Shown piece by piece: positions 7,351 to 45,891 of a stretch of DNA of 46,291 bases. Made by a program: the position numbers and the translations under genes. Source of the DNA: Gammaproteobacteria bacterium (GTDB lineage: Bacteria > Pseudomonadota > Gammaproteobacteria > SpSt-1174). How positions within the stretch are numbered: the first letter of the stretch is position 1; each line of letters opens with the position of its first letter. The stretch is taken from NCBI GenBank assembly GCA_033839185.1, contig JAJLKJ010000004.1:1-46291 (forward strand). Reading direction: 5' to 3'. Below the pieces are notes generated by a model. That model did no database searches. It saw only the letters and a list, made by a program, of their open reading frames with translations, and was not told the origin of the DNA.

Positions 7351-7503
7351 GGCCACAGAGGGCACAGAGTTCACAGAGGGGTTCGCGTGGTTTCGCAGGA
7401 TAAACCCTTTCTAGCGCAGCCCGATCTGCACCTGTTGATGACAGGCCCTGTGTAGTTGATTGGCCTGAGTTTTGCCTCTGTGGTCTCTGTGCCCTCTGTG
7501 GCG
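7351..7503. repeat. CACAGAG-family palindromic element, copy A (29-nt arms, 95-nt spacer)
   Basis: GGCCACAGAGGGCACAGAGTTCACAGAGG (7351-7379) versus CCTCTGTGGTCTCTGTGCCCTCTGTGGCG (7475-7503). The arms are reverse complements apart from about 3 positions. Confidence 0.88.
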
Positions 7504-13306: not shown

Positions 13307-13801
13307 GTGTCGCGTTACGTGCCGCGCCTGGTGTTCGTGCTGCTCGCCGTCCTGCTGGCGGCCGGCTGCGGTTTCCAGTTGCGCGGCGCGGCCAACCTGC
13401 CGCCCGAGATGGCGCGCACCTACATCAGCGGCCTGGATGCGCGCGACGTCCTGTTCCTGGAGCTCAAGCGCCAGCTGCGCGCCATGGGCGTCGAGGTGGT
13501 GGATGGGCCCGAGCAGGCCACCGCGCAGTTGCGATTCCTGGAGCGGCGCGATACACGCCGCGTACTCTCGGTCGGCAATCAGGCCACGGTGCGCGAATAC
13601 GAGCTCATGACCAGCGTCCGCTTCGATGCGCGCGGCATCGGCAACGACTTTCGTCGAGACCCCGTCACCCTGACCGCCACCCGCGAACTCAGCTTCGACG
13701 AGACCAACGTCCACAGCACCGCCGGCGAGGAGGCCCTGCTGCGCGAGGACATGCAGCGGGACATGGTGCAGCGCGTGTTGCGCCGGCTGGAGACGCACTG
13801 A
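13307..13801 (+). CDS. lptE: LPS-assembly lipoprotein LptE
   Basis: Lipobox LLAAGCGFQLRG, ~160 aa, immediately downstream of leuS (GTG 1 nt after the leuS stop). Confidence 0.78.
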   Translation: MSRYVPRLVFVLLAVLLAAGCGFQLRGAANLPPEMARTYISGLDARDVLFLELKRQLRAMGVEVVDGPEQATAQLRFLERRDTRRVLSVGNQATVREYELMTSVRFDARGIGNDFRRDPVTLTATRELSFDETNVHSTAGEEALLREDMQRDMVQRVLRRLETH

Positions 13802-13934
13802 AAGTCGCAAGTCGCAAGTCGCGAGTGGGCAGTCCAGGAAATTCAATGCGCCACAGAGGGCACAGAGTCAAACTGCTTCCCCGATGGCCTCTATGTGCTC
13901 TGTGCCCTCTGTGGTGTCCAGACTTCCCGCTTGC
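13802..13934. repeat. CACAGAG-family element, copy B, with (AAGTCGC)x3 outer array
   Basis: AAGTCGC x3 at 13802-13822. Arms are GCGCCACAGAGGGCACAGAG (13848-13867) and CCTCTATGTGCTCTGTGCCCTCTGTGGTG (13888-13916). A degenerate complementary flank GACTTCCCGCTTGC lies at 13921-13934. Confidence 0.82.
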
Positions 13935-13965
13935 CTGAGTGCACTTCGGGGGCTAACTTAAGTCC

Positions 13966-14829
13966 ATGACCTCTCTCGCCTTTATCGGCCCCGGCATCAT
14001 GGGGCGCCCCATGGCGCTGAACCTGATGGGCGGTGGCCACGACATGCATGTCTATGCCCGCCGGGCCGAGGCGGCCGAGCCGCTGGTGGCGGCGGGCGCC
14101 AGGGCCTGGGGCTCGCCGGCCGAGGCCGCCGCGCAGGCCGAGATGATCTTCTCCTGCGTCTCGGACACGCCCGACGTGGAAGACGTGCTGCTCGGTGCGC
14201 AGGGTGTGGTCCACGGGGCCCGGTCCGGCAGTGTCGTCGTCGACATGAGCACCATCTCCCCCAGCGCCACCCGGGAGATGGCCGCCCGGCTCGCCGAGCG
14301 GGGCATCGAGATGCTGGATGCCCCGGTGTCCGGGGGCGAGCAGGGCGCGATTGCCGGCACGCTCTCCATCATGGTGGGGGGCAAGGCCGAGGTCCTGGCG
14401 CGGGTGCGGCCGCTGCTGGACCTCATGGGCAGGAACATCGTGCACGTCGGCGGCAACGGGGCGGGGCAGGTGGCCAAGGCCTGTAACCAGATCGTCGTCG
14501 CCCAGACCCTGGTCGGCGTGGCCGAGGCCCTGCAGCTCGCCAGGCGTGAGGGCGTGGATGCCGCCCGCGTGCGCGAGGCCCTGCTCGGGGGCTTTGCCGG
14601 CTCGAAGATCCTCGAGGTCCACGGCCAGCGCATGCTGGACGAAAACTACACGCCGGGTTTCAAGGCACGCCTGCATACCAAGGATCTCGGCATCGCCCTG
14701 GCCGAGGCCGAGTCCCTGGGGCTCGACGTCACGGCGGTGCGCGCCGCTGCCGATCTCATCCGGCGGGTGGCCGAGGAGATCGACGGCGAGCTGGACCACT
14801 CGGCGGTGTTCCGGCTGCTTGGCGAATGA
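13966..14829 (+). CDS. NAD(P)-dependent 3-hydroxyacid dehydrogenase (HIBADH / 2-hydroxy-3-oxopropionate reductase family)
   Basis: N-terminal Rossmann motif FIGPGIMGRPMA, plus DAPVSGG and GAGQVAKACNQ signatures of the family. Confidence 0.8.
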   Translation: MTSLAFIGPGIMGRPMALNLMGGGHDMHVYARRAEAAEPLVAAGARAWGSPAEAAAQAEMIFSCVSDTPDVEDVLLGAQGVVHGARSGSVVVDMSTISPSATREMAARLAERGIEMLDAPVSGGEQGAIAGTLSIMVGGKAEVLARVRPLLDLMGRNIVHVGGNGAGQVAKACNQIVVAQTLVGVAEALQLARREGVDAARVREALLGGFAGSKILEVHGQRMLDENYTPGFKARLHTKDLGIALAEAESLGLDVTAVRAAADLIRRVAEEIDGELDHSAVFRLLGE

Positions 14830-18188: not shown

Positions 18189-18217
18189 TGCCACAGAGGG
18201 GACAGAGATCACAGAGG
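18189..18217. repeat. CACAGAG-family solo arm, copy C (no partner arm found)
   Basis: TGCCACAGAGGGGACAGAGATCACAGAGG. No CTCTGTG arm lies between 18218 and the zupT stop at 18305. Confidence 0.7.
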
Positions 18218-21299: not shown

Positions 21300-21874
21300 G
21301 CGCCGTGGCTGAGGCCTCGCTCGATACCGGCGAGCGCCGGCAGCTGCTGGTCATCGCCCGGCAGTCCATCGAGCAGGGCCTGCATGGCGGGGAACCCCTC
21401 CGGCTTGCGCAGGACGACCTGCCGCCCCGACTGCGGGAGACGGGCGGCACCTTCGTCACCCTCAGGCGCCACGGCGAGCTGCGCGGCTGCATCGGCACGC
21501 TCGAGCCGCATCAACCCCTGGCGCAGGACGTGGCCGAACACGCCTTTGCCGCCGCCTTCCGCGACCCCCGCTTCCCCCCGCTGCGAGCCGACGAGCTCGA
21601 CGACCTGACGATCGACATCGCCATCCTCGGCCCAGCCGAGGAGCTGGTGTTTCAGGACGAGGCCGACCTCGTGCGTCAGCTGCGTCCCGGCGCCGACGGC
21701 CTCATCCTGCAGGAGGGCGCGCGGCGCGGGACCTTCCTGCCGAGCGTGTGGGAGCAGCTGCCCGATCCCGCTGAGTTCCTGCGACAGCTCAAGCGCAAGG
21801 CCGGCCTGCCGGCCGACCACTGGTCGGACACGCTCAGGGTCTGGCGCTACGGCGTCGAGGTGGTAGGGGGCTGA
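21296..21874 (+). CDS. AmmeMemoRadiSam system protein A (AMMECR1 domain)
   Basis: GTFVTLRRHGELRGCIGTLEP and RGTFLPSVWEQLPDP. The GTG at 21296 overlaps the Memo stop (GTGA). Confidence 0.85.
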   Translation: MSAVAEASLDTGERRQLLVIARQSIEQGLHGGEPLRLAQDDLPPRLRETGGTFVTLRRHGELRGCIGTLEPHQPLAQDVAEHAFAAAFRDPRFPPLRADELDDLTIDIAILGPAEELVFQDEADLVRQLRPGADGLILQEGARRGTFLPSVWEQLPDPAEFLRQLKRKAGLPADHWSDTLRVWRYGVEVVGG

Positions 21875-21899
21875 AGTTTGAAGTTTGAAGTTTGAAGTT
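21872..21899. repeat. perfect heptanucleotide tandem repeat (TGAAGTT)x4
   Basis: Counted directly from the sequence. The first TGA is the stop codon of the AMMECR1-domain gene. Confidence 0.97.
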
Positions 21900-22058
21900 T
21901 GAGGGGTGAATCGCCTGGCGGGCACGGCCCGCCCTATTGTTCATCAGCCACAGAGCTCACAGAGGTATGACAAGGTGGTTTTACTTTGTGTCCTCTGTGG
22001 CAATACCCGTCTGAATGGCTCTGTCCTTCCCACTTCAAACTTCAAACTTCACCCCTAA
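21872..22058. repeat. CACAGAG-family element, copy D, full nested form: heptamer array / GC hairpin / core palindrome / complementary heptamer array
   Basis: (TGAAGTT)x4 at 21872-21899. GGCGGGC-ACG-GCCCGCC at 21917-21933. Arms at 21947-21965 and 21984-22001. CTTCAAA CTTCAAA CTTCACC at 22033-22053. Confidence 0.88.
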
Positions 22059-23077
22059 CGCCCCGAACCCATTCGCTCCATCAGGTAACAGAGGCAGTCC
22101 TGCCGCACCACCCGTTCGTCCAGCGTGAGCATGGAGGGCATCATGGCGCGCCTGAGCAGGATGCGCTGGTCGCGGATCTCGAAGTAGTCGTCGGTGACGT
22201 CGGCGCCGGTCTCGTCGTAGGCGGCGAGTCGCGCATTGGCGAGTGCGTCGACGATGCCGAACTCGGTGCCGGCCGGCACCTCGCGGAAGTTCATGCGTTC
22301 GAGCTCCGGGTCGAAGGCGATGTGGGCGGCGCTGTGGCCGAAGCTGAAGCTGAAGGCATCCGGCACCTTCACCTGGGCGACGGTGTGGAAGAGATCGATG
22401 TCATGCCCGTTCACGGCATGCGAGGGGATCTCGGCGAGATGCAGGCAGGCGTCGAGGTATTCGACGGCATGTTCCACGCCGTAGGCCTGGCCGGGCTTGC
22501 CGCATTCCAGGGTGGTGGACGGACAGACCTCGGCCATGGCCATGGAGGCTACGCCGCGCGGGCGGATGAAATAGACCACGGTGCGGCCGAACAGCACGGC
22601 GAGCTGCAGGAAGGCGTTGTCCAGCCGGTTGATGCAGGCATAGTGCGGGTTGAGGCCGGTGTTGTTGTGGACGTCCACACTGGCAAAGGCCTGGCGCCGG
22701 CGCATGGTCTGGACGATGTACGCCATCATGCGCGTCTCCTCGCCCGGCGGGAGCTCGGTGCCGGGCCAGCAGCGGTTGTAGTCGGGCTGGTCGTCCAGGC
22801 GGCGGCGCCCCTCGCGGGCGGCGGCGACGTTGCCGATGAACAGCGACAGGGCGCGTGGCAGTTCCTGCCCGGCGTAACGCTCCAGCAGCGTCTGGATCGC
22901 GACCAGCCCCGTATCCTCGTTGCCGTGCAGCAGCACGGAGACGAACAGCGGCGCCTCCCGCCGTCCGGGCAGGTGGATGAGCGTCGGGCCGTCCAGCACG
23001 CGATGCAGGTCGCGGGCCGCGATGCCGAGCAGGCCGTCGGGCAGGTTGTCGATCTCGGTGAGCAGTGCGGGTCGCAT
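22055..23077 (-). CDS. succinylglutamate desuccinylase/aspartoacylase (AstE_AspA, M14-like) family zinc hydrolase
   Basis: 340 aa from the ATG at 23077. LHGNEDTG (HxxE zinc motif) and a predicted-deacylase-like layout. Lies 2 nt downstream of the GCS2 gene stop. Confidence 0.75.
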   Translation of the reverse strand: MRPALLTEIDNLPDGLLGIAARDLHRVLDGPTLIHLPGRREAPLFVSVLLHGNEDTGLVAIQTLLERYAGQELPRALSLFIGNVAAAREGRRRLDDQPDYNRCWPGTELPPGEETRMMAYIVQTMRRRQAFASVDVHNNTGLNPHYACINRLDNAFLQLAVLFGRTVVYFIRPRGVASMAMAEVCPSTTLECGKPGQAYGVEHAVEYLDACLHLAEIPSHAVNGHDIDLFHTVAQVKVPDAFSFSFGHSAAHIAFDPELERMNFREVPAGTEFGIVDALANARLAAYDETGADVTDDYFEIRDQRILLRRAMMPSMLTLDERVVRQDCLCYLMERMGSGR

Positions 23078-31279: not shown

Positions 31280-31378
31280 AGACGTTAGGCGAATAGTCTA
31301 AGCGCCACAGAGGGCACAGAGAAAGAACACGACCGGTTTACCTCTGTGATCTCTGTGTCCTCTGTGGCTAAAACGTCT
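31280..31378. repeat. CACAGAG-family element, copy E (inverted orientation relative to A, B and F)
   Basis: Outer AGACGTT (31280-31286) pairs with AACGTCT (31372-31378). Arms are GCGCCACAGAGGGCACAGAG (31302-31321) and CCTCTGTGATCTCTGTGTCCTCTGTGGC (31341-31368). Confidence 0.84.
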
Positions 31379-43452: not shown

Positions 43453-44328
43453 ATGACACTGATCACCGTTCTCATCGGCCTCGTGCTCGAGCGCTTCGTC
43501 GGCTATCTCGACGACTTCCGCCAGCTGGGCTGGTTTCGCCAGTATGGCGAGTGGCTGCAGGCGCGCCTGGGCAGCCTGGCCGACGGAGCTCCGGGGGTGG
43601 CGCTGATCCTCATCGGTCCCGTCCTGGTGATCTGGGGCGTGAGCGAGCTCTTCGATGATGCCCTGCTGGGGCTGCTCGAACTCCTCTTCGGCGTGGCCGT
43701 GCTGCTCTACTGCCTGGGGCCGCGTGATCTGCGGCAGGACGTGGAGTCCTATACCGAGGCCCTGGAATCCGGCGACGAGGCCCGCATCGAGCGCGCCACC
43801 GCACGCCTGGTCGACGGCCCCCTGCCCGAGGAGCCGGTGGCGCGTCTGCGGGCCGTGGTGGAGGGCGTCTTCATCGAGGCCAACAGCCGGCTGCTGGCCG
43901 TGGTCTTCTGGTTCGTGATCCTGGGGCCGCTGGGCGCGGTGGTCTACCGCCTGAGTCATGCGCTGGCGCAGCAGGCCGCGGCCGACAGCCGCCTGCGGCG
44001 TGCCGCTACGCACTGGCTGGGCCTGCTCGACTGGGTTCCCGCACGCCTGGTGGCCCTGTTCTACGGTCTCACCGGCCACTTCGACGATACCCTGGCGGTA
44101 TTGCGCCGCCATCTGGTCGGCCCGCTGGAGGCGCTCCCGGCCACCAACCGTGCCCTGCTGGCCGAGGCCGGCATCGCCGGCCTGCAGTTCGACGAGCTGG
44201 CCAGCGAAGAGCTGGATGCCGAGCAGGTGAATCTCATCTTCACCACCACCAGCACCATGGTGCTGCGCACCCTGGCGCTGGCCGTCACCCTGCTGGCCGT
44301 CGCCACGCTGGGTGGCTGGACCGCCTGA
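43453..44328 (+). CDS. ampE: AmpE-like membrane regulatory protein
   Basis: MTLITVLIGLVLERF and LLDWVPARLVALFYGL, downstream of ampD as in enterics. Confidence 0.75.
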   Translation: MTLITVLIGLVLERFVGYLDDFRQLGWFRQYGEWLQARLGSLADGAPGVALILIGPVLVIWGVSELFDDALLGLLELLFGVAVLLYCLGPRDLRQDVESYTEALESGDEARIERATARLVDGPLPEEPVARLRAVVEGVFIEANSRLLAVVFWFVILGPLGAVVYRLSHALAQQAAADSRLRRAATHWLGLLDWVPARLVALFYGLTGHFDDTLAVLRRHLVGPLEALPATNRALLAEAGIAGLQFDELASEELDAEQVNLIFTTTSTMVLRTLALAVTLLAVATLGGWTA

Positions 44329-44932
44329 TCCCGCCGCTTCCCCGCCCGTGCCGGCCACGGTCCTCGACCTGCTGCGCCACGGCGAGCCCGTTGGCGGCCG
44401 CTGCTATCGGGGCAATGGCGTCGACGACCCGCTGAGCGAGGCCGGCTGGGCCCAGATGCAGGCCGCGGTGGAGGCCGCCCCCGACTCCTGGACCCGCGTC
44501 GTCACCTCCCCCTTGAGCCGCTGCCGGGCCTTCGCCGCGGCGCTGGGCGAACGCCTCGGTATCCCCCTGGACGTCGAGGCCGATCTGCGCGAGGTGGGTT
44601 TCGGGGTCTGGGAGGGGCTCACGCCGGAGAGGGTGGCCGCGCGCTACCCGCAGATGCTGGCGGCGTTTCGCGCCGACCCGGTGGGGCGGCGGCCCGAGGG
44701 CGCCGAACCCGCTCAGGCCTTCTTCGATCGCAGCGTCCGGGCGCTGGAGGCCATCGCCCGCCGCCACCCGGGGGAGCGGCTGCTCATCGTCGCCCATGCC
44801 GGCACCCTGCGCGCCGCCACCGCCTGGGCCGTACAGGCGCCCCTGGCCGAGGTCTTCCGCATCAAGGTCGGCTACGCCGCACGGGTGCGGCTGCGCTACG
44901 AGGCCGGACGCCCCTGGCTTGAGTTGGGGTGA
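44312..44932 (+). CDS. histidine phosphatase family protein (CobC/alpha-ribazole phosphatase-like)
   Basis: LDLLRHGEP (RHG motif) and IVAHAGTLRA. The start is uncertain: GTG at 44312 overlapping the ampE end, or GTG at 44348. Confidence 0.7.
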   Translation: MAGPPDPAASPPVPATVLDLLRHGEPVGGRCYRGNGVDDPLSEAGWAQMQAAVEAAPDSWTRVVTSPLSRCRAFAAALGERLGIPLDVEADLREVGFGVWEGLTPERVAARYPQMLAAFRADPVGRRPEGAEPAQAFFDRSVRALEAIARRHPGERLLIVAHAGTLRAATAWAVQAPLAEVFRIKVGYAARVRLRYEAGRPWLELG

Positions 44933-44953
44933 GGGAGAGGGAGCGGGAAGGAG

Positions 44954-45132
44954 TGAGGCGTGAGGAGTAAGGGGTTAGGCGGGCATGGCCCGCCCTGTTT
45001 TATTTGCCACAGAGCACACAGAGATCACAGAGGCGAACTAGGCTATGTTATTCCTCTGTGTCCTCTGTGGCGTTTAGACTTTTCGCCTCACGCCTCACGC
45101 CTCACGCCTCACGCCTCACGCCTCACGCCTCA
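44954..45132. repeat. CACAGAG-family element, copy F, full nested form with (CGCCTCA)x7
   Basis: TGAGGCG TGAGGAG TAAGGGG TTAGGCG at 44954-44981. GGCGGGC-ATG-GCCCGCC at 44978-44994. Arms at 45006-45033 and 45053-45071. CGCCTCA x7 at 45084-45132. Confidence 0.9.
45084..45132. repeat. perfect heptanucleotide tandem repeat (CGCCTCA)x7
   Basis: 49 nt counted directly from the sequence. On the minus strand it reads (TGAGGCG)x7, starting with the stop codon of the 45130..45891 gene. Confidence 0.97.
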
Positions 45133-45891
45133 CCTTTCACTGATCTCCCGCAGCTTCTTCACCGCCAGCCCCGCCTCGTCGGCGATCTGCAGGGCGCGTT
45201 CCAGGCGTGCGGCGGCGGTGCGTCCCAGGCACTTGTGCTCGGGGTCGCCGAAGAAGGCCTCGACCGTGCCGGCGATGACCTTGTCGCGGTCGTTCTCGCA
45301 GCCGGTGAGGTGGTCCTGGATGTCGAGCACGTCGGCCAGCACCGCGCGGGCCAGTGTCTCGTGCTGCTTCCACAGCTCGCTGGTGGTGCCGCCCACCACC
45401 AGGCCGGCGATGTTGGCGGTGAGGATGTAGGCGTTCTTGCGCACCAGCTCGTAGCGCATCTCGTCTGCGTCGTCGACGCGGTAGTTCGGGATGTCCAGCG
45501 CATCCAGGGCGGCGTTCACCAGCCCGGCATGCGGGCCGTGCACGGGTGTGGGCACCACGATCTTCACGTCCTGCCCCTTCTTCTTCTCGAACCACACCGA
45601 TGCCACGGTGGGCTGTTTCAGGTCGTGCGCCGCCCAGTCGCGCGGCAGCAGCTCGTTCTGCACCAGCGCCAGGCGGTCGCGCCACACCGGCGGCACGGTC
45701 TCCAGCGCCGGGTGCAGGTCGGCCTCGGCCACGGCCAGCACCGCCAGCGCCGGCTCGGGGATGTGGCGCGACTCGTCGGCCATGTCCATGTCGCGGGTGA
45801 CCGGGTAGACCGGGTGCCCGGCCTTCAGAAAGCCGTTGGCGAAGGTGCAGCCGATCTGGCCCAGGCCGATGATGACGATGGGGTCTTTCAT
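45130..45891 (-). CDS. NAD(P)-binding Rossmann-fold protein of unknown function
   Basis: MKDPIVIIGLGQIGCTFANGFLKAGHPV (GxGxxG). The ATG at 45891 is preceded by AGGAG. The stop TGA (45130-45132) is the first unit of a heptamer array. Confidence 0.55.
   Translation of the reverse strand: MKDPIVIIGLGQIGCTFANGFLKAGHPVYPVTRDMDMADESRHIPEPALAVLAVAEADLHPALETVPPVWRDRLALVQNELLPRDWAAHDLKQPTVASVWFEKKKGQDVKIVVPTPVHGPHAGLVNAALDALDIPNYRVDDADEMRYELVRKNAYILTANIAGLVVGGTTSELWKQHETLARAVLADVLDIQDHLTGCENDRDKVIAGTVEAFFGDPEHKCLGRTAAARLERALQIADEAGLAVKKLREISER

What the first reader, a model, noticed from the sequence alone, without database searches (positions are those of the whole stretch)
44930..45132. Copy F: largest element, (CGCCTCA)x7 microsatellite fused to the stop codon of the minus-strand gene
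The phosphatase-gene stop TGA (44930) opens a purine-rich, heptamer-phased flank (…TGAGGCG TGAGGAG TAAGGGG TTAGGCG). The hairpin GGCGGGC-ATG-GCCCGCC follows. Next come core arms of 3 and 2 units with a 19-nt loop, then GGCGTTTAGACTTTT, then seven perfect CGCCTCA units (45084-45132). On the minus strand these read (TGAGGCG)x7, and the first TGA is the stop of the 45130..45891 gene. The left array is decayed and the right one is perfect and expanded (4 versus 7 units). That is what replication slippage on one arm would produce. A perfect 49-nt heptamer array is a likely length-polymorphic site.
Basis: seen in the sequence. Interest (0 to 1): 0.65.

Follow-up and report, generated by a model that had tools for sequence, protein, structure and literature searches.

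The report
Heptamer-repeat arm of an intergenic palindrome
The seven perfect CGCCTCA units are the recently homogenised outer arm of a 200-base nested palindrome that sits between two converging genes, supplies a stop codon and a terminator hairpin, and belongs to a fast-changing repeat family whose core turns up in many bacterial phyla; it is not a protein on/off switch.

Summary
(CGCCTCA)x7 at 45084-45132 is perfect, and on the minus strand its last unit is the TGA stop of the ApbA-like gene. One correction: the left flank holds seven in-phase decayed heptamers (44933-44981), not four, so both outer arms are 49 nt.

Copy F is one of six copies of a composite intergenic palindrome. Its parts are outer inverted heptamer arrays, a GC hairpin with a T-tract (an intrinsic terminator for the phosphatase gene), nonamer-phased CACAGAG arms, and a TAGAC box.

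TAGAC followed by a T-run and (CGCCTNA)n recurs as an end module in other copies and in relatives. The array is therefore an expanded family part, not a local invention.

In the nearest relative the orthologous element is inverted and has only two or three decayed units. Orthologous arrays elsewhere differ by exactly 7 or 9 nt, and one copy is absent in relatives. Slippage and turnover are thus supported between lineages. Variation within the strain could not be tested.

Every unit carries TGA after the stop, so unit changes cannot alter either protein.

Inverted CACAGAG nonamer arms occur in many phyla. Heptamer arrays abutting stop codons are known from Xanthomonas, and similar nonamer sites from Geobacter. 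The function is unproven.

The parts
44930..44932 (+). TGA stop of the histidine-phosphatase-family gene (44312-44932); the first heptamer unit starts at the next base
   Evidence: ORF list; Pfam His_Phos_1, E 9e-44
44933..44981 (+). Left outer arm: seven in-phase decayed heptamers (GGGAGAG GGAGCGG GAAGGAG TGAGGCG TGAGGAG TAAGGGG TTAGGCG), G-rich on the sense strand of the phosphatase gene
   Evidence: Lag-7 identity 27 of 42, reached by 4 of 10000 shuffles; 35 Watson-Crick pairs of 49 with the right array; TRF period-7 row at 44949-44972
44978..45005 (+). GC hairpin GGCGGGC-ATG-GCCCGCC plus T-rich tail CTGTTTTATTT: an intrinsic-terminator-like module for the plus-strand gene. It overlaps the last heptamer by 4 nt.
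   Evidence: Terminator scan: 7 GC pairs, loop of 3, T tail. The same module is in copy D, L229 and L154, and on the opposite side in L121.
45007..45033 (+). Left core arm: CCACAGAG-CA-CACAGAG-AT-CACAGAG-G (three nonamer-phased units)
   Evidence: Pattern search; TRF period 9
45034..45052 (.). 19-nt loop of the core hairpin
   Evidence: Sequence; folds
45053..45070 (+). Right core arm: C-CTCTGTG-TC-CTCTGTG-G (two nonamer-phased units)
   Evidence: Pattern search; TRF
45071..45083 (+). TAGAC box (CGTTTAGACTTTT), the conserved asymmetric end module of this lineage's elements
   Evidence: Also present in copies A and E, L121, and L074, L227, L229, L154, L175 and L195
45084..45132 (+). Right outer arm: seven perfect CGCCTCA units. 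On the minus strand this reads (TGAGGCG)x7, which gives TGA in all three frames.
   Evidence: TRF 7.1 copies, 100% matches; pattern search
45130..45132 (-). TGA stop of the ApbA/PanE-like gene (45130-45891, minus strand), supplied by the outermost heptamer unit
   Evidence: ORF list. The C-terminal tail after LREI is 3 aa here against mostly 5-10 aa in the homologues printed (one has 3, one lacks the motif).

Best explanation
Copy F is one copy of a high-density intergenic composite palindrome that resembles REP/BIME elements. There are six copies in 46 kb, all at gene 3' ends. The palindrome is built from nested inverted tandem arrays: outer heptamer arms (TRAGGSG on the sense strand of each incoming gene) and inner nonamer arms (CACAGAGRR). 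Between the two layers lie two asymmetric modules: a GC hairpin with a U-tract on one side and a TAGAC box on the other.

The (CGCCTCA)x7 tract is the outer arm on the TAGAC side. Replication slippage has recently expanded or homogenised it from the two to five degenerate units seen in other copies.

Shown:
- The anatomy.
- Family membership.
- The recurrence of the end module.
- Differences between lineages of exactly one 7-nt or one 9-nt unit.
- Presence/absence of a whole copy.
- Opposite orientation of the orthologous element in the nearest relative.
- Flanking ORFs ending in heptamer units.

Inferred:
- The arrays grow and shrink by slippage. Complementarity survives because both arms are iterations of the same unit.
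- The arms exchange and flip by recombination or template switching within the palindrome.
- Units carrying TGA/TAA/TAG at period 7 place a stop in every frame. This lets the element abut or overrun a gene's non-essential C-terminal tail without harm.
- At the RNA level the element acts as a 3'-end structure between converging genes: an intrinsic terminator for the phosphatase gene, and a long stem-loop for the other gene.
- The array's exact length is probably near-neutral. It changes 3' UTR and stem length, not protein.
For: - Perfect array, with coordinates confirmed.
- Six copies of the core; CACAGAG occurs 25 times against 7.6 expected.
- All five period-7 arrays of about 3 or more units in the window lie within 80 nt of a core.
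- Gene context: two copies sit between tandem genes, four between convergent genes, none between divergent genes.
- The 216-nt region folds as one composite hairpin: -115.8 kcal/mol (z -7.8) on the plus strand and -119.3 kcal/mol (z -9.7) on the minus strand.
- A terminator-like site lies at 44978-44994.
- The TAGAC plus T-run plus (CGCCTNA)n module recurs in copy E, L121, L074/L229 and L227.
- L121, whose neighbouring protein is 97% identical, carries the element in the opposite orientation. Local alignment scores 102 flipped against 53 unflipped. An X1 metagenome contig shows the same opposite-strand joint.
- L121 has only about two decayed units where the window has seven.
- L227, an orthologue of copy D's locus, differs by one 7-nt unit and one 9-nt unit and carries a different end module.
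- At copy B a relative shows a concerted A>C change in all three units and a +9 nt arm unit. Other relatives lack the element altogether.
- Stops lie inside heptamers: the right side of F, both sides of E, the right side of D and both sides of L121. The L121 phosphatase ORF reads on through a 1-nt difference and stops at TAG of TTAGGCG.
- The ApbA-like tail is shortened to 3 aa.
- Across all loci fetched, 30 of 76 period-7 arrays have an open frame of at least 100 codons ending in or at them, against 9.6% for random placements.
- Precedent: heptanucleotides are reported as the commonest long SSR class, with polymerase slippage proposed as the cause (Mrazek 2007, as cited in PMC4679880). Xanthomonas heptamer arrays occur in convergent pairs at or overlapping stop codons (PMC4692102).
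Against: - No reads of this strain could be examined, so unit-number variation at F itself is not shown.
- No transcript ends are available; the one metatranscriptome was uninformative.
- The minus strand has no U-tract after its stems, so termination for the ApbA-like gene is not predicted by the canonical rule.
- The longest exact inverted match between the two outer arms is 12 nt. That is short for RecA-type recombination, so the flipped orientation could instead reflect independent insertion or template switching.
- Near-neutral drift and slippage do not explain why the heptamer CACAGAG is conserved across phyla. That conservation points to a sequence-specific partner.
- Equal arm lengths (49 and 49 nt) hint at selection on the stem rather than free drift.
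Confidence: 0.6

Rival explanations
1. The element is a sequence-specific binding platform. The tandem CACAGAG nonamers, and perhaps the heptamers, are iterated sites for a conserved DNA- or RNA-binding protein. Candidates are nucleoid proteins of the IHF/HU type, as proposed for the Geobacter sites, or S1/Csp/CsrA-type RNA binders, as proposed for the TAACTGA repeats. On this reading, unit number tunes occupancy and hence termination, mRNA decay or local DNA architecture.
For: - The same heptamer at 9-nt phase, in inverted pairs, occurs in MAGs and genomes labelled as many different phyla and in one archaeal MAG. A partner arm lies within 400 nt in 62 of the elements found.
- The heptamer stays constant, while the 2-nt spacers vary and are purine-biased.
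- G. metallireducens has 21 paired sites of three tandem TCTCCGTS[Y] nonamers, interpreted there as global-regulator sites (PMC2700814).
- Candidate binders are discussed in PMC4679880.
Against: - No candidate protein was identified or tested here.
- Outer heptamer sequences differ between copies (TGAGGCG, TGAAGTT, AAGTCGC), which argues against one heptamer-specific binder.
- Units are gained, lost and decay freely between close relatives, and whole copies are dispensable.
- G-U against A-C mismatch counts show no strand bias overall (105 against 105).
Confidence: 0.25
2. The element is a non-autonomous mobile element of the MITE or REPIN type. The nested arrays are its terminal inverted repeats, and copies are inserted, excised and flipped by a transposase or recombinase acting in trans. 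The perfect array reflects a young insertion rather than local slippage.
For: - Dispersed copies share asymmetric internal modules.
- Copy B shows presence/absence between relatives.
- Orientation is opposite at one orthologous locus.
- End modules differ at another orthologous locus.
- There are three structural alleles at the F locus among near-identical neighbours.
- (TGAGGCG)n next to CACAGAG arms appears at other loci in metagenome contigs.
Against: - No target-site duplication is seen at the filled versus empty copy B site. The difference is a 127-nt for 32-nt replacement.
- No copy with arms far apart enclosing a gene was found among 246 loci.
- There is no 5' GTAG as in RAYT-associated REPs. 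GTAG-type REPs are a separate family at the same locus.
- Differences of exactly one unit are what slippage predicts, not transposition.
Confidence: 0.3
3. The array is a classical phase-variation (contingency) microsatellite. Changes in its length switch or tune expression of one of the flanking genes.
For: It is a perfect seven-unit array, and related arrays vary in unit number.
Against: - The array lies entirely after the stop codon, between two converging 3' ends. No promoter-like site is found in 44600-45400.
- Each unit carries TGA, so the protein ends at the first unit whatever the unit number (sequence).
- The flanking genes are housekeeping-type: a histidine phosphatase next to ampD/ampE, and an ApbA-like reductase.
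Confidence: 0.05
4. The array is a G-quadruplex-forming repeat like the Xanthomonas GGGAATC arrays.
For: The arrangement is the same: the G-rich strand is the coding strand just after the stop, in convergent pairs (PMC4692102). The left tract contains GGGAGAGGGAGCGGGAAGG.
Against: TGAGGCG has only GG runs. The left tract has three G3 runs, not four. The perfect array is the C-rich strand on plus and carries GG-only runs on minus.
Confidence: 0.05

Closest known systems
Xanthomonas GGGAATC (GGGNATC) heptamer repeats, Rehm et al. 2015 (PMC4692102)
   Same: Both are dispersed heptamer SSRs in a GC-rich gammaproteobacterium. The Xanthomonas arrays have 2-26 units, mostly about 4. About 70 cases are convergent pairs on opposite strands that could form stem-loops. 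The G-rich strand lies on the coding strand within 0-50 bp of, or overlapping, the stop codon, and the arrays are transcribed.
   Different: The unit sequence differs and has no G3 tracts, so no quadruplex is expected. Here the arrays flank a conserved nonamer-armed core with a terminator module and a TAGAC box, which the parts of that paper read here do not mention.
Geobacter metallireducens 'predicted global regulator binding sites' classes 1-3, Aklujkar et al. 2009 (PMC2700814)
   Same: Class 2 consists of three tandem nonamers TCTCCGTS[Y] in pairs on opposite strands at variable distance. That is one base away from CTCTGTG, and both variants co-occur in the loci. Class 3 consists of five tandem heptanucleotides arranged as hairpins. 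Some sites belong to two classes, which amounts to nesting.
   Different: The Geobacter sites are described only as alignments in supplements and attributed to IHF/HU without any test. No link to stop codons, terminators, inversion or unit-number change was reported. The heptamer units also differ (MTYCTGA).
E. coli REP/BIME elements and REPINs
   Same: These are high-copy imperfect palindromes in intergenic regions at gene 3' ends. They often lie between convergent genes, are mosaic in their modules, and are associated with mRNA 3'-end stabilisation and termination (established knowledge).
   Different: The arms of copy F are tandem arrays rather than a single ~35-nt palindromic unit. There is no conserved 5' GTAG. 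No RAYT was looked for here. The same core sequence is shared across phyla, whereas REPs are species-specific.
Cyanobacterial STRR heptanucleotide repeats and Beggiatoaceae TAACTGA repeats (MacGregor 2015, PMC4679880)
   Same: Both are families of tandem heptamers dispersed through intergenic regions. Their phylogenetic distribution is patchy and suggests transfer, and their function is unknown.
   Different: TAACTGA arrays are direct repeats sitting mostly just upstream of start codons; only one indirect repeat is reported. The arrays here are inverted pairs at stop codons.

Membership tests
Long simple sequence repeat (microsatellite) | Head-to-tail iteration of a short unit far beyond chance | tested here: met
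   7.1 perfect copies, TRF score 100
Long simple sequence repeat (microsatellite) | Unit-number variation between strains or cells | tested here: inconclusive
   At F, there are 7 perfect units against about 2 decayed units in L121. Differences of exactly one unit are seen at orthologous copies D and B. Within-strain variation at F could not be tested, because k=31 contigs cannot size a 49-nt array.
Phase-variable contingency locus | SSR inside an ORF or promoter, so that unit change shifts the frame or the promoter spacing | tested here: not met
   The array follows the stop, lies between converging 3' ends, carries TGA in every unit, and has no promoter-like site nearby
Xanthomonas-type heptamer inverted repeats (Rehm 2015) | Heptamer arrays in convergent pairs, with the G-rich strand on the coding strand within 50 bp of or overlapping the stop | tested here: met
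   Both arms abut or contain the stops of the two converging genes. The general enrichment is 30 of 76 arrays against 9.6% for random placements.
Xanthomonas-type heptamer inverted repeats (Rehm 2015) | GGGNATC unit with at least four G3 tracts (quadruplex potential) | tested here: not met
   The unit TGAGGCG has only GG runs, and the left tract has three G3 runs
Geobacter class-2 multicopy sites (Aklujkar 2009) | Three tandem nonamers TCTCCGTS[Y] paired on opposite strands at variable distance | tested here: met
   Arms of 3 and 2 units of NNCTCTGTG/CACAGAGNN, separated by a 19-nt loop here and by loops of roughly 20 to 100 nt in the other complete copies. The heptamer differs at one base; CACGGAG variants co-occur.
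Geobacter class-2 multicopy sites (Aklujkar 2009) | Binding by IHF/HU-type proteins (as proposed) | not testable with these tools
   This needs biochemistry
REP / REPIN (RAYT-mobilised) | High-copy intergenic imperfect palindrome | tested here: met
   Six copies in 46 kb, all intergenic
REP / REPIN (RAYT-mobilised) | Conserved 5' GTAG and an associated RAYT gene | tested here: not met
   No GTAG at the element ends. GTAG palindromes are a separate family at the same locus in L122-L125. A RAYT gene was not searched for.
MITE | Terminal inverted repeats plus a target-site duplication | tested here: not met
   Inverted arms are present, but the filled versus empty site at copy B shows no duplication; it is a 127-nt for 32-nt replacement
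MITE | A related autonomous element with the same ends | tested here: inconclusive
   No convincing widely spaced arm pair enclosing a gene was found among 246 loci. Whole genomes were not available.
Rho-independent terminator | GC-rich stem followed by a U-tract | tested here: met
   Plus strand, 44978-44994, followed by CTGTTTTATT. No such site is found on the minus strand.
Rho-independent terminator | Transcripts end there in vivo | not testable with these tools
   No RNA reads of this organism are available; X29 was uninformative
Any Rfam family | Score at or above the family's gathering threshold | tested here: not met
   No hits in the window. Only far sub-threshold matches to generic long-hairpin miRNA models. 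Nothing at the elements in eight other loci.

The most novel reading that the evidence does not exclude
The CACAGAG nonamer-armed palindrome, together with its associated inverted heptamer arrays, is a single undescribed class of genetic element that spans many phyla. It is either spread horizontally or maintained by a widely conserved factor. It propagates and remodels itself by slippage and intra-palindrome recombination. In effect it would be a self-renewing, invertible 3'-end cassette that brings its own three-frame stops and terminator. Its inversion swaps the intrinsic terminator from one converging gene to the other.
Probability: 0.15. Interest if true: 0.8.

Novelty: new variant of a known kind. 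Interest (0 to 1): 0.5.

Why it matters
Dispersed heptamer arrays are the commonest long microsatellites in bacteria, and they remain unexplained.

This locus ties them to a defined architecture: nested inverted arrays around a conserved nonamer core with a built-in terminator. It also shows in real comparisons that such elements change by single units, flip, and come and go between near-identical genomes, while supplying stop codons to the genes they abut.

If the core that recurs across phyla has a specific partner, this would be a widespread 3'-end signal or mobile element that has so far escaped description. If it has none, the locus is a clear example of how slippage-built palindromes colonise the space between converging genes. 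It is also a practical warning for gene callers and assemblers, because contigs break at these elements and C-termini shift.

Tried and rejected
- Rfam: nothing at the gathering threshold in the window, and only sub-threshold generic hairpin models at the locus.
- Read-level sizing of the array: no run holds this strain across copy F. The runs found are k=31 contig sets, which collapse the array.
- Transcript ends from a compost metatranscriptome: depth was too low and the run holds only relatives.
- G-U versus A-C mismatch asymmetry, to decide between RNA and DNA and to pick the strand: 105 against 105 overall, with only a weak excess of G-U at the outer spacer (20 against 8).
- Search for an autonomous version with arms far apart: none convincing.
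- Literature searches by sequence (CACAGAG, CTCTGTG, CTCTGTGG) returned only unrelated primer hits or nothing. The Geobacter supplements hold no searchable sequence.
- The metagenome pattern CTCTGTGGCGNNTAGAC returned mostly chance matches; only five real elements were found.
- Quadruplex reading: rejected because G3 tracts are lacking.
- 'Shine-Dalgarno-like heptamer' idea: roughly a third of the array units I read by eye contain GAGG or GGAG, so it is not general.
- Integron attC resemblance (GTTAGGC inside TTAGGCG): considered from memory only. It was not pursued because the tandem-array structure does not look like an attC site.
- Loop-orientation comparison for F itself: the loop is too diverged to decide (4 against 4).
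Full report
**1. The observation**

- The His_Phos_1 gene (Pfam E 9e-44) ends with TGA at 44930-44932.
- TGAGGCG TGAGGAG TAAGGGG TTAGGCG occupy 44954-44981.
- GGCGGGC-ATG-GCCCGCC (44978-44994) is followed by CTGTTTTATT and is picked up as a terminator-like site.
- CACAGAG occurs three times on the plus strand (45008, 45017, 45026) and twice on the minus strand (45054, 45063), around a 19-nt loop.
- GGCGTTTAGACTTTT follows.
- Tandem Repeats Finder then reports 7.1 perfect copies of CGCCTCA at 45084-45133.
- The minus-strand ORF ends at 45130-45132, so its TGA is the outermost unit of (TGAGGCG)x7. The 45891 start agrees with homologues of 253-257 aa.

One correction is needed. Lag-7 identity is 27 of 42, a value reached by 4 of 10000 shuffles. 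In register with the right array, 35 of 49 positions are Watson-Crick. Both outer arms are therefore 49 nt: seven decayed units against seven perfect ones.

**2. What copy F is part of**

CACAGAG occurs 25 times in the window against 7.6 expected. The matches fall into six clusters: A at 7354-7500, B at 13852-13913, C at 18192-18216 (a half copy), D at 21949-21999, E at 31306-31366 and F (sequences).

All five period-7 arrays of about three or more units in the window lie within 80 nt of a core. They are AAGTCGC at B, TGAAGTT and ACTTCAA at D, and the two arms at F.

A GC3-based ORF map places A and B between tandem genes and C, D, E and F between converging genes. No copy lies between diverging genes.

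The copies share two asymmetric modules. One end has a T-rich stretch, preceded in D and F by a GC hairpin. The other end has CGnnTAGAC followed by a T-run. Copy E has the opposite orientation to A, B, D and F.

As RNA, 44925-45140 folds into one composite hairpin on either strand: -115.8 kcal/mol (z -7.8) and -119.3 kcal/mol (z -9.7).

No Rfam family fits.

**3. The array is a family part, not a local invention**

TAGAC, a T-run and CGCCTNA units recur in several places:
- Copy E has CGCCTAA CGTCTGT CGCCTCA CGCGTCA.
- The orthologue L121 has CGCCTAA CGCCTAT.
- A Thioalkalivibrio MAG contig (L074) and the matching metagenome contig (L229) have CGCCTTC CGCCTTA.
- L227 has TAGACTTTTCGCCTCACGCCTCA, running into the end of the contig.
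- Metagenome contigs also show (TGAGGCG)n next to CACAGAG arms at other loci.

Copy F thus carries the family's terminal heptamer array in an unusually long and perfect state.

**4. Comparison with relatives**

The organism is an uncultured gammaproteobacterium. The best match to the ApbA-like protein is 97% identical and comes from a Chromatiales MAG.

At the F locus:
- In that MAG (L121) the same intergenic site holds the same element in the opposite orientation relative to the two genes. The local alignment scores 102 flipped against 53 unflipped, and the flipped alignment covers both asymmetric modules.
- A contig from metagenome X1 shows the matching opposite-strand joint.
- The longest exact inverted match between the outer arms is 12 nt, so an assembler could not have flipped the segment by mistake.
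- L121 has only about two decayed units where the window has seven.
- Three further contigs encode the identical protein but carry a third allele: half a core plus a GTAG-type palindrome.

At copy D, the orthologous contig L227 (flank about 96% identical) differs by exactly one 7-nt unit in the array and one 9-nt unit in the arm. It also carries the TAGAC-(CGCCTCA)n module where the window has the GC-hairpin module.

At copy B:
- One relative has all three AAGTCGC units changed A>C in concert, 6 nt fewer at the array end and an extra CACAGAGGT.
- Other relatives lack the whole element. They have 32 nt in place of 127, with no target-site duplication.

These are the signatures of slippage, homogenisation and rapid turnover between lineages. 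Variation inside the strain could not be examined. No run holds this strain across copy F, and the available runs are kept as k=31 contigs, which cannot size a 49-nt period-7 array.

**5. Relation to the flanking genes**

Read inward on the sense strand of each incoming gene, the heptamers have the form T-R-A-G-G-S-G. At period 7 they put a stop in all three frames within three units.
- Stops that lie inside a heptamer unit: the right side of F, both sides of E, the right side of D and both sides of L121.
- In L121 a 1-nt difference lets the phosphatase ORF read on for six codons, until TAG of TTAGGCG.
- The ApbA-like tail after the conserved LREI is 3 aa in the window (SER). In the homologues printed it is mostly 5-10 aa; one has 3 and one lacks the motif.
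- The element therefore abuts or overruns variable C-terminal tails without damage.
- Because the array follows the stop and each unit renews it, changing the unit number cannot alter either protein. With no promoter-like site nearby, a classical phase-variation role is excluded.

**6. Beyond this genome**

A scan of one genome per species for CCACAGAGNNCACAGAG stopped at its 120-locus limit. About 1100 chance matches would be expected in 596 Gb. Yet 62 to 73 of the elements found have the inverted partner arm within about 400 nt, which chance does not give.

By the records' own titles, the hosts include Acidobacteriota, Planctomycetota, Chloroflexota, Nitrospirae, Gemmatimonadetes, Bacteroidetes, Verrucomicrobia, Chlamydiae, Cloacimonadota, a Pelosinus MAG, delta-, beta- and gammaproteobacteria, cultured Trichlorobacter thiogenes and Shewanella metallivivens, and one archaeal MAG.

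The same loci are rich in period-7 arrays, often as inverted pairs with varied units. Thirty of 76 such arrays have an open frame of at least 100 codons ending in or at them, against 9.6% for random placements.

**7. What is known**

- Heptanucleotides are reported as the most abundant long SSR class in prokaryotes, and polymerase slippage has been proposed as the cause (Mrazek 2007, as summarised in PMC4679880).
- Rehm et al. (PMC4692102) described 186 GGGAATC arrays in Xanthomonas campestris. About 70 form convergent pairs. The arrays are concentrated within 50 bp of, or overlapping, stop codons on the coding strand, and they are transcribed.
- Aklujkar et al. (PMC2700814) listed paired tandem nonamers TCTCCGTS[Y], paired tandem heptamers and paired octamers in Geobacter metallireducens. 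They guessed these were IHF/HU sites.

I found no description of the nested architecture, its distribution across phyla, or its inversion and unit-by-unit change.

**8. Mechanism**

Most likely (confidence 0.6), the element is a REP/BIME-like 3'-end palindrome whose arms are microsatellites.
- Because both arms iterate the same unit, slippage on either arm preserves complementarity. This explains how different copies can carry different but still complementary heptamers.
- Recombination or template switching between the arms explains the flips. It also fits the fact that the loop in L121 and L122 is inverted relative to the modules when compared with D and L229 (11 against 2, 10 against 3).
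- The GC hairpin with its U-tract gives the phosphatase gene a canonical terminator. The other gene meets only long stems without a U-tract.
- The exact array length is probably near-neutral.

This account does not explain why CACAGAG itself is conserved across phyla. That keeps two rivals alive, and they overlap with the main account: a sequence-specific binding partner (0.25) and a trans-mobilised element (0.3).

**9. Verdict**

The tract is ordinary as a microsatellite, but it sits in an architecture that is poorly described and surprisingly widespread.

Noticed in passing
L001-L120 (for example L048 1811-1895, L059 1204-1295, L004 4022-4150, L102 2508-2584 and 6634-6870): Inverted CACAGAG nonamer-phased arms occur in genomes and MAGs labelled as many bacterial phyla and in one archaeal MAG (Ca. 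Ethanoperedens). There are often several copies per 8 kb. I found no description of this distribution.
   Followed up: partly
window 45078-45133 as laid on runs X25, X35 and X36: 31-mers of pure (CGCCTCA)n reach word depths of up to 20000 per contig, about 150000 summed, in one soil metagenome and hundreds in two others. That is far above the roughly 60x depth of the related organism. These arrays must be very numerous or very long somewhere in those samples.
   Followed up: no
window 13800-13926 (copy B): Relatives in X1, X25 and X27 lack the whole element. In its place they have 32 nt (AGAAGCACACTTCACACTTCACCTCTCTCCCT) containing two CACTTCA heptamers, with no target-site duplication. Another relative has all three AAGTCGC units changed A>C in concert.
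   Followed up: yes
window 13600-14100 compared with 21500-22400 and 44500-45500, run X10: A 5.9-kb X10 contig is identical to the window across copy B. X10 contigs at copies D and F differ from the window by about 4-8% in the flanking genes. Either the population is mosaic through recombination, or the window comes from a chimeric or co-assembled bin.
   Followed up: no
L122 1528-1640, L123, L124; L125 5820-5900: Classical GTAG...CTAC REP-like palindromes occupy the same intergenic site in close relatives. Two unrelated palindromic repeat families therefore compete for the same gene-end space.
   Followed up: no
L121 4775-4925: The phosphatase ORF of the relative lacks one G before the stop. 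It reads six codons into the element and ends at TAG of a TTAGGCG unit, giving a product of 199 aa as called. This is a natural demonstration of the three-frame stop effect.
   Followed up: yes
L047 808-1015; L030 7794-7953: In a Binatia MAG and a Pyrinomonadaceae MAG, the inverted heptamer arrays (GCGGAGA/TCTCCGC and GGTAAAA/TTTTACC) lie inside the loop of the nonamer arms instead of outside. The nesting order is therefore not fixed.
   Followed up: no
L108 2513-2753 and 4835-6108 (Shewanella metallivivens): This cultured strain has two adjacent arrays of about 14 GACAAGT units each. It also has a 1.3-kb run of several CACAGAG elements in tandem. It is a possible experimental system.
   Followed up: no
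L121, L122 compared with window copy D and L229: The loop sequence (TATG...GGTTTTAC) is inverted relative to the GC-hairpin and TAGAC modules in L121 and L122 when compared with D and L229 (scores 11 against 2 and 10 against 3). This suggests the loop flips independently between the nonamer arms.
   Followed up: partly
window 18192-18216 (copy C): This is a half element. It has a left arm of three units (one degenerate, GACAGAG) and no right arm, and it lies between converging genes.
   Followed up: no
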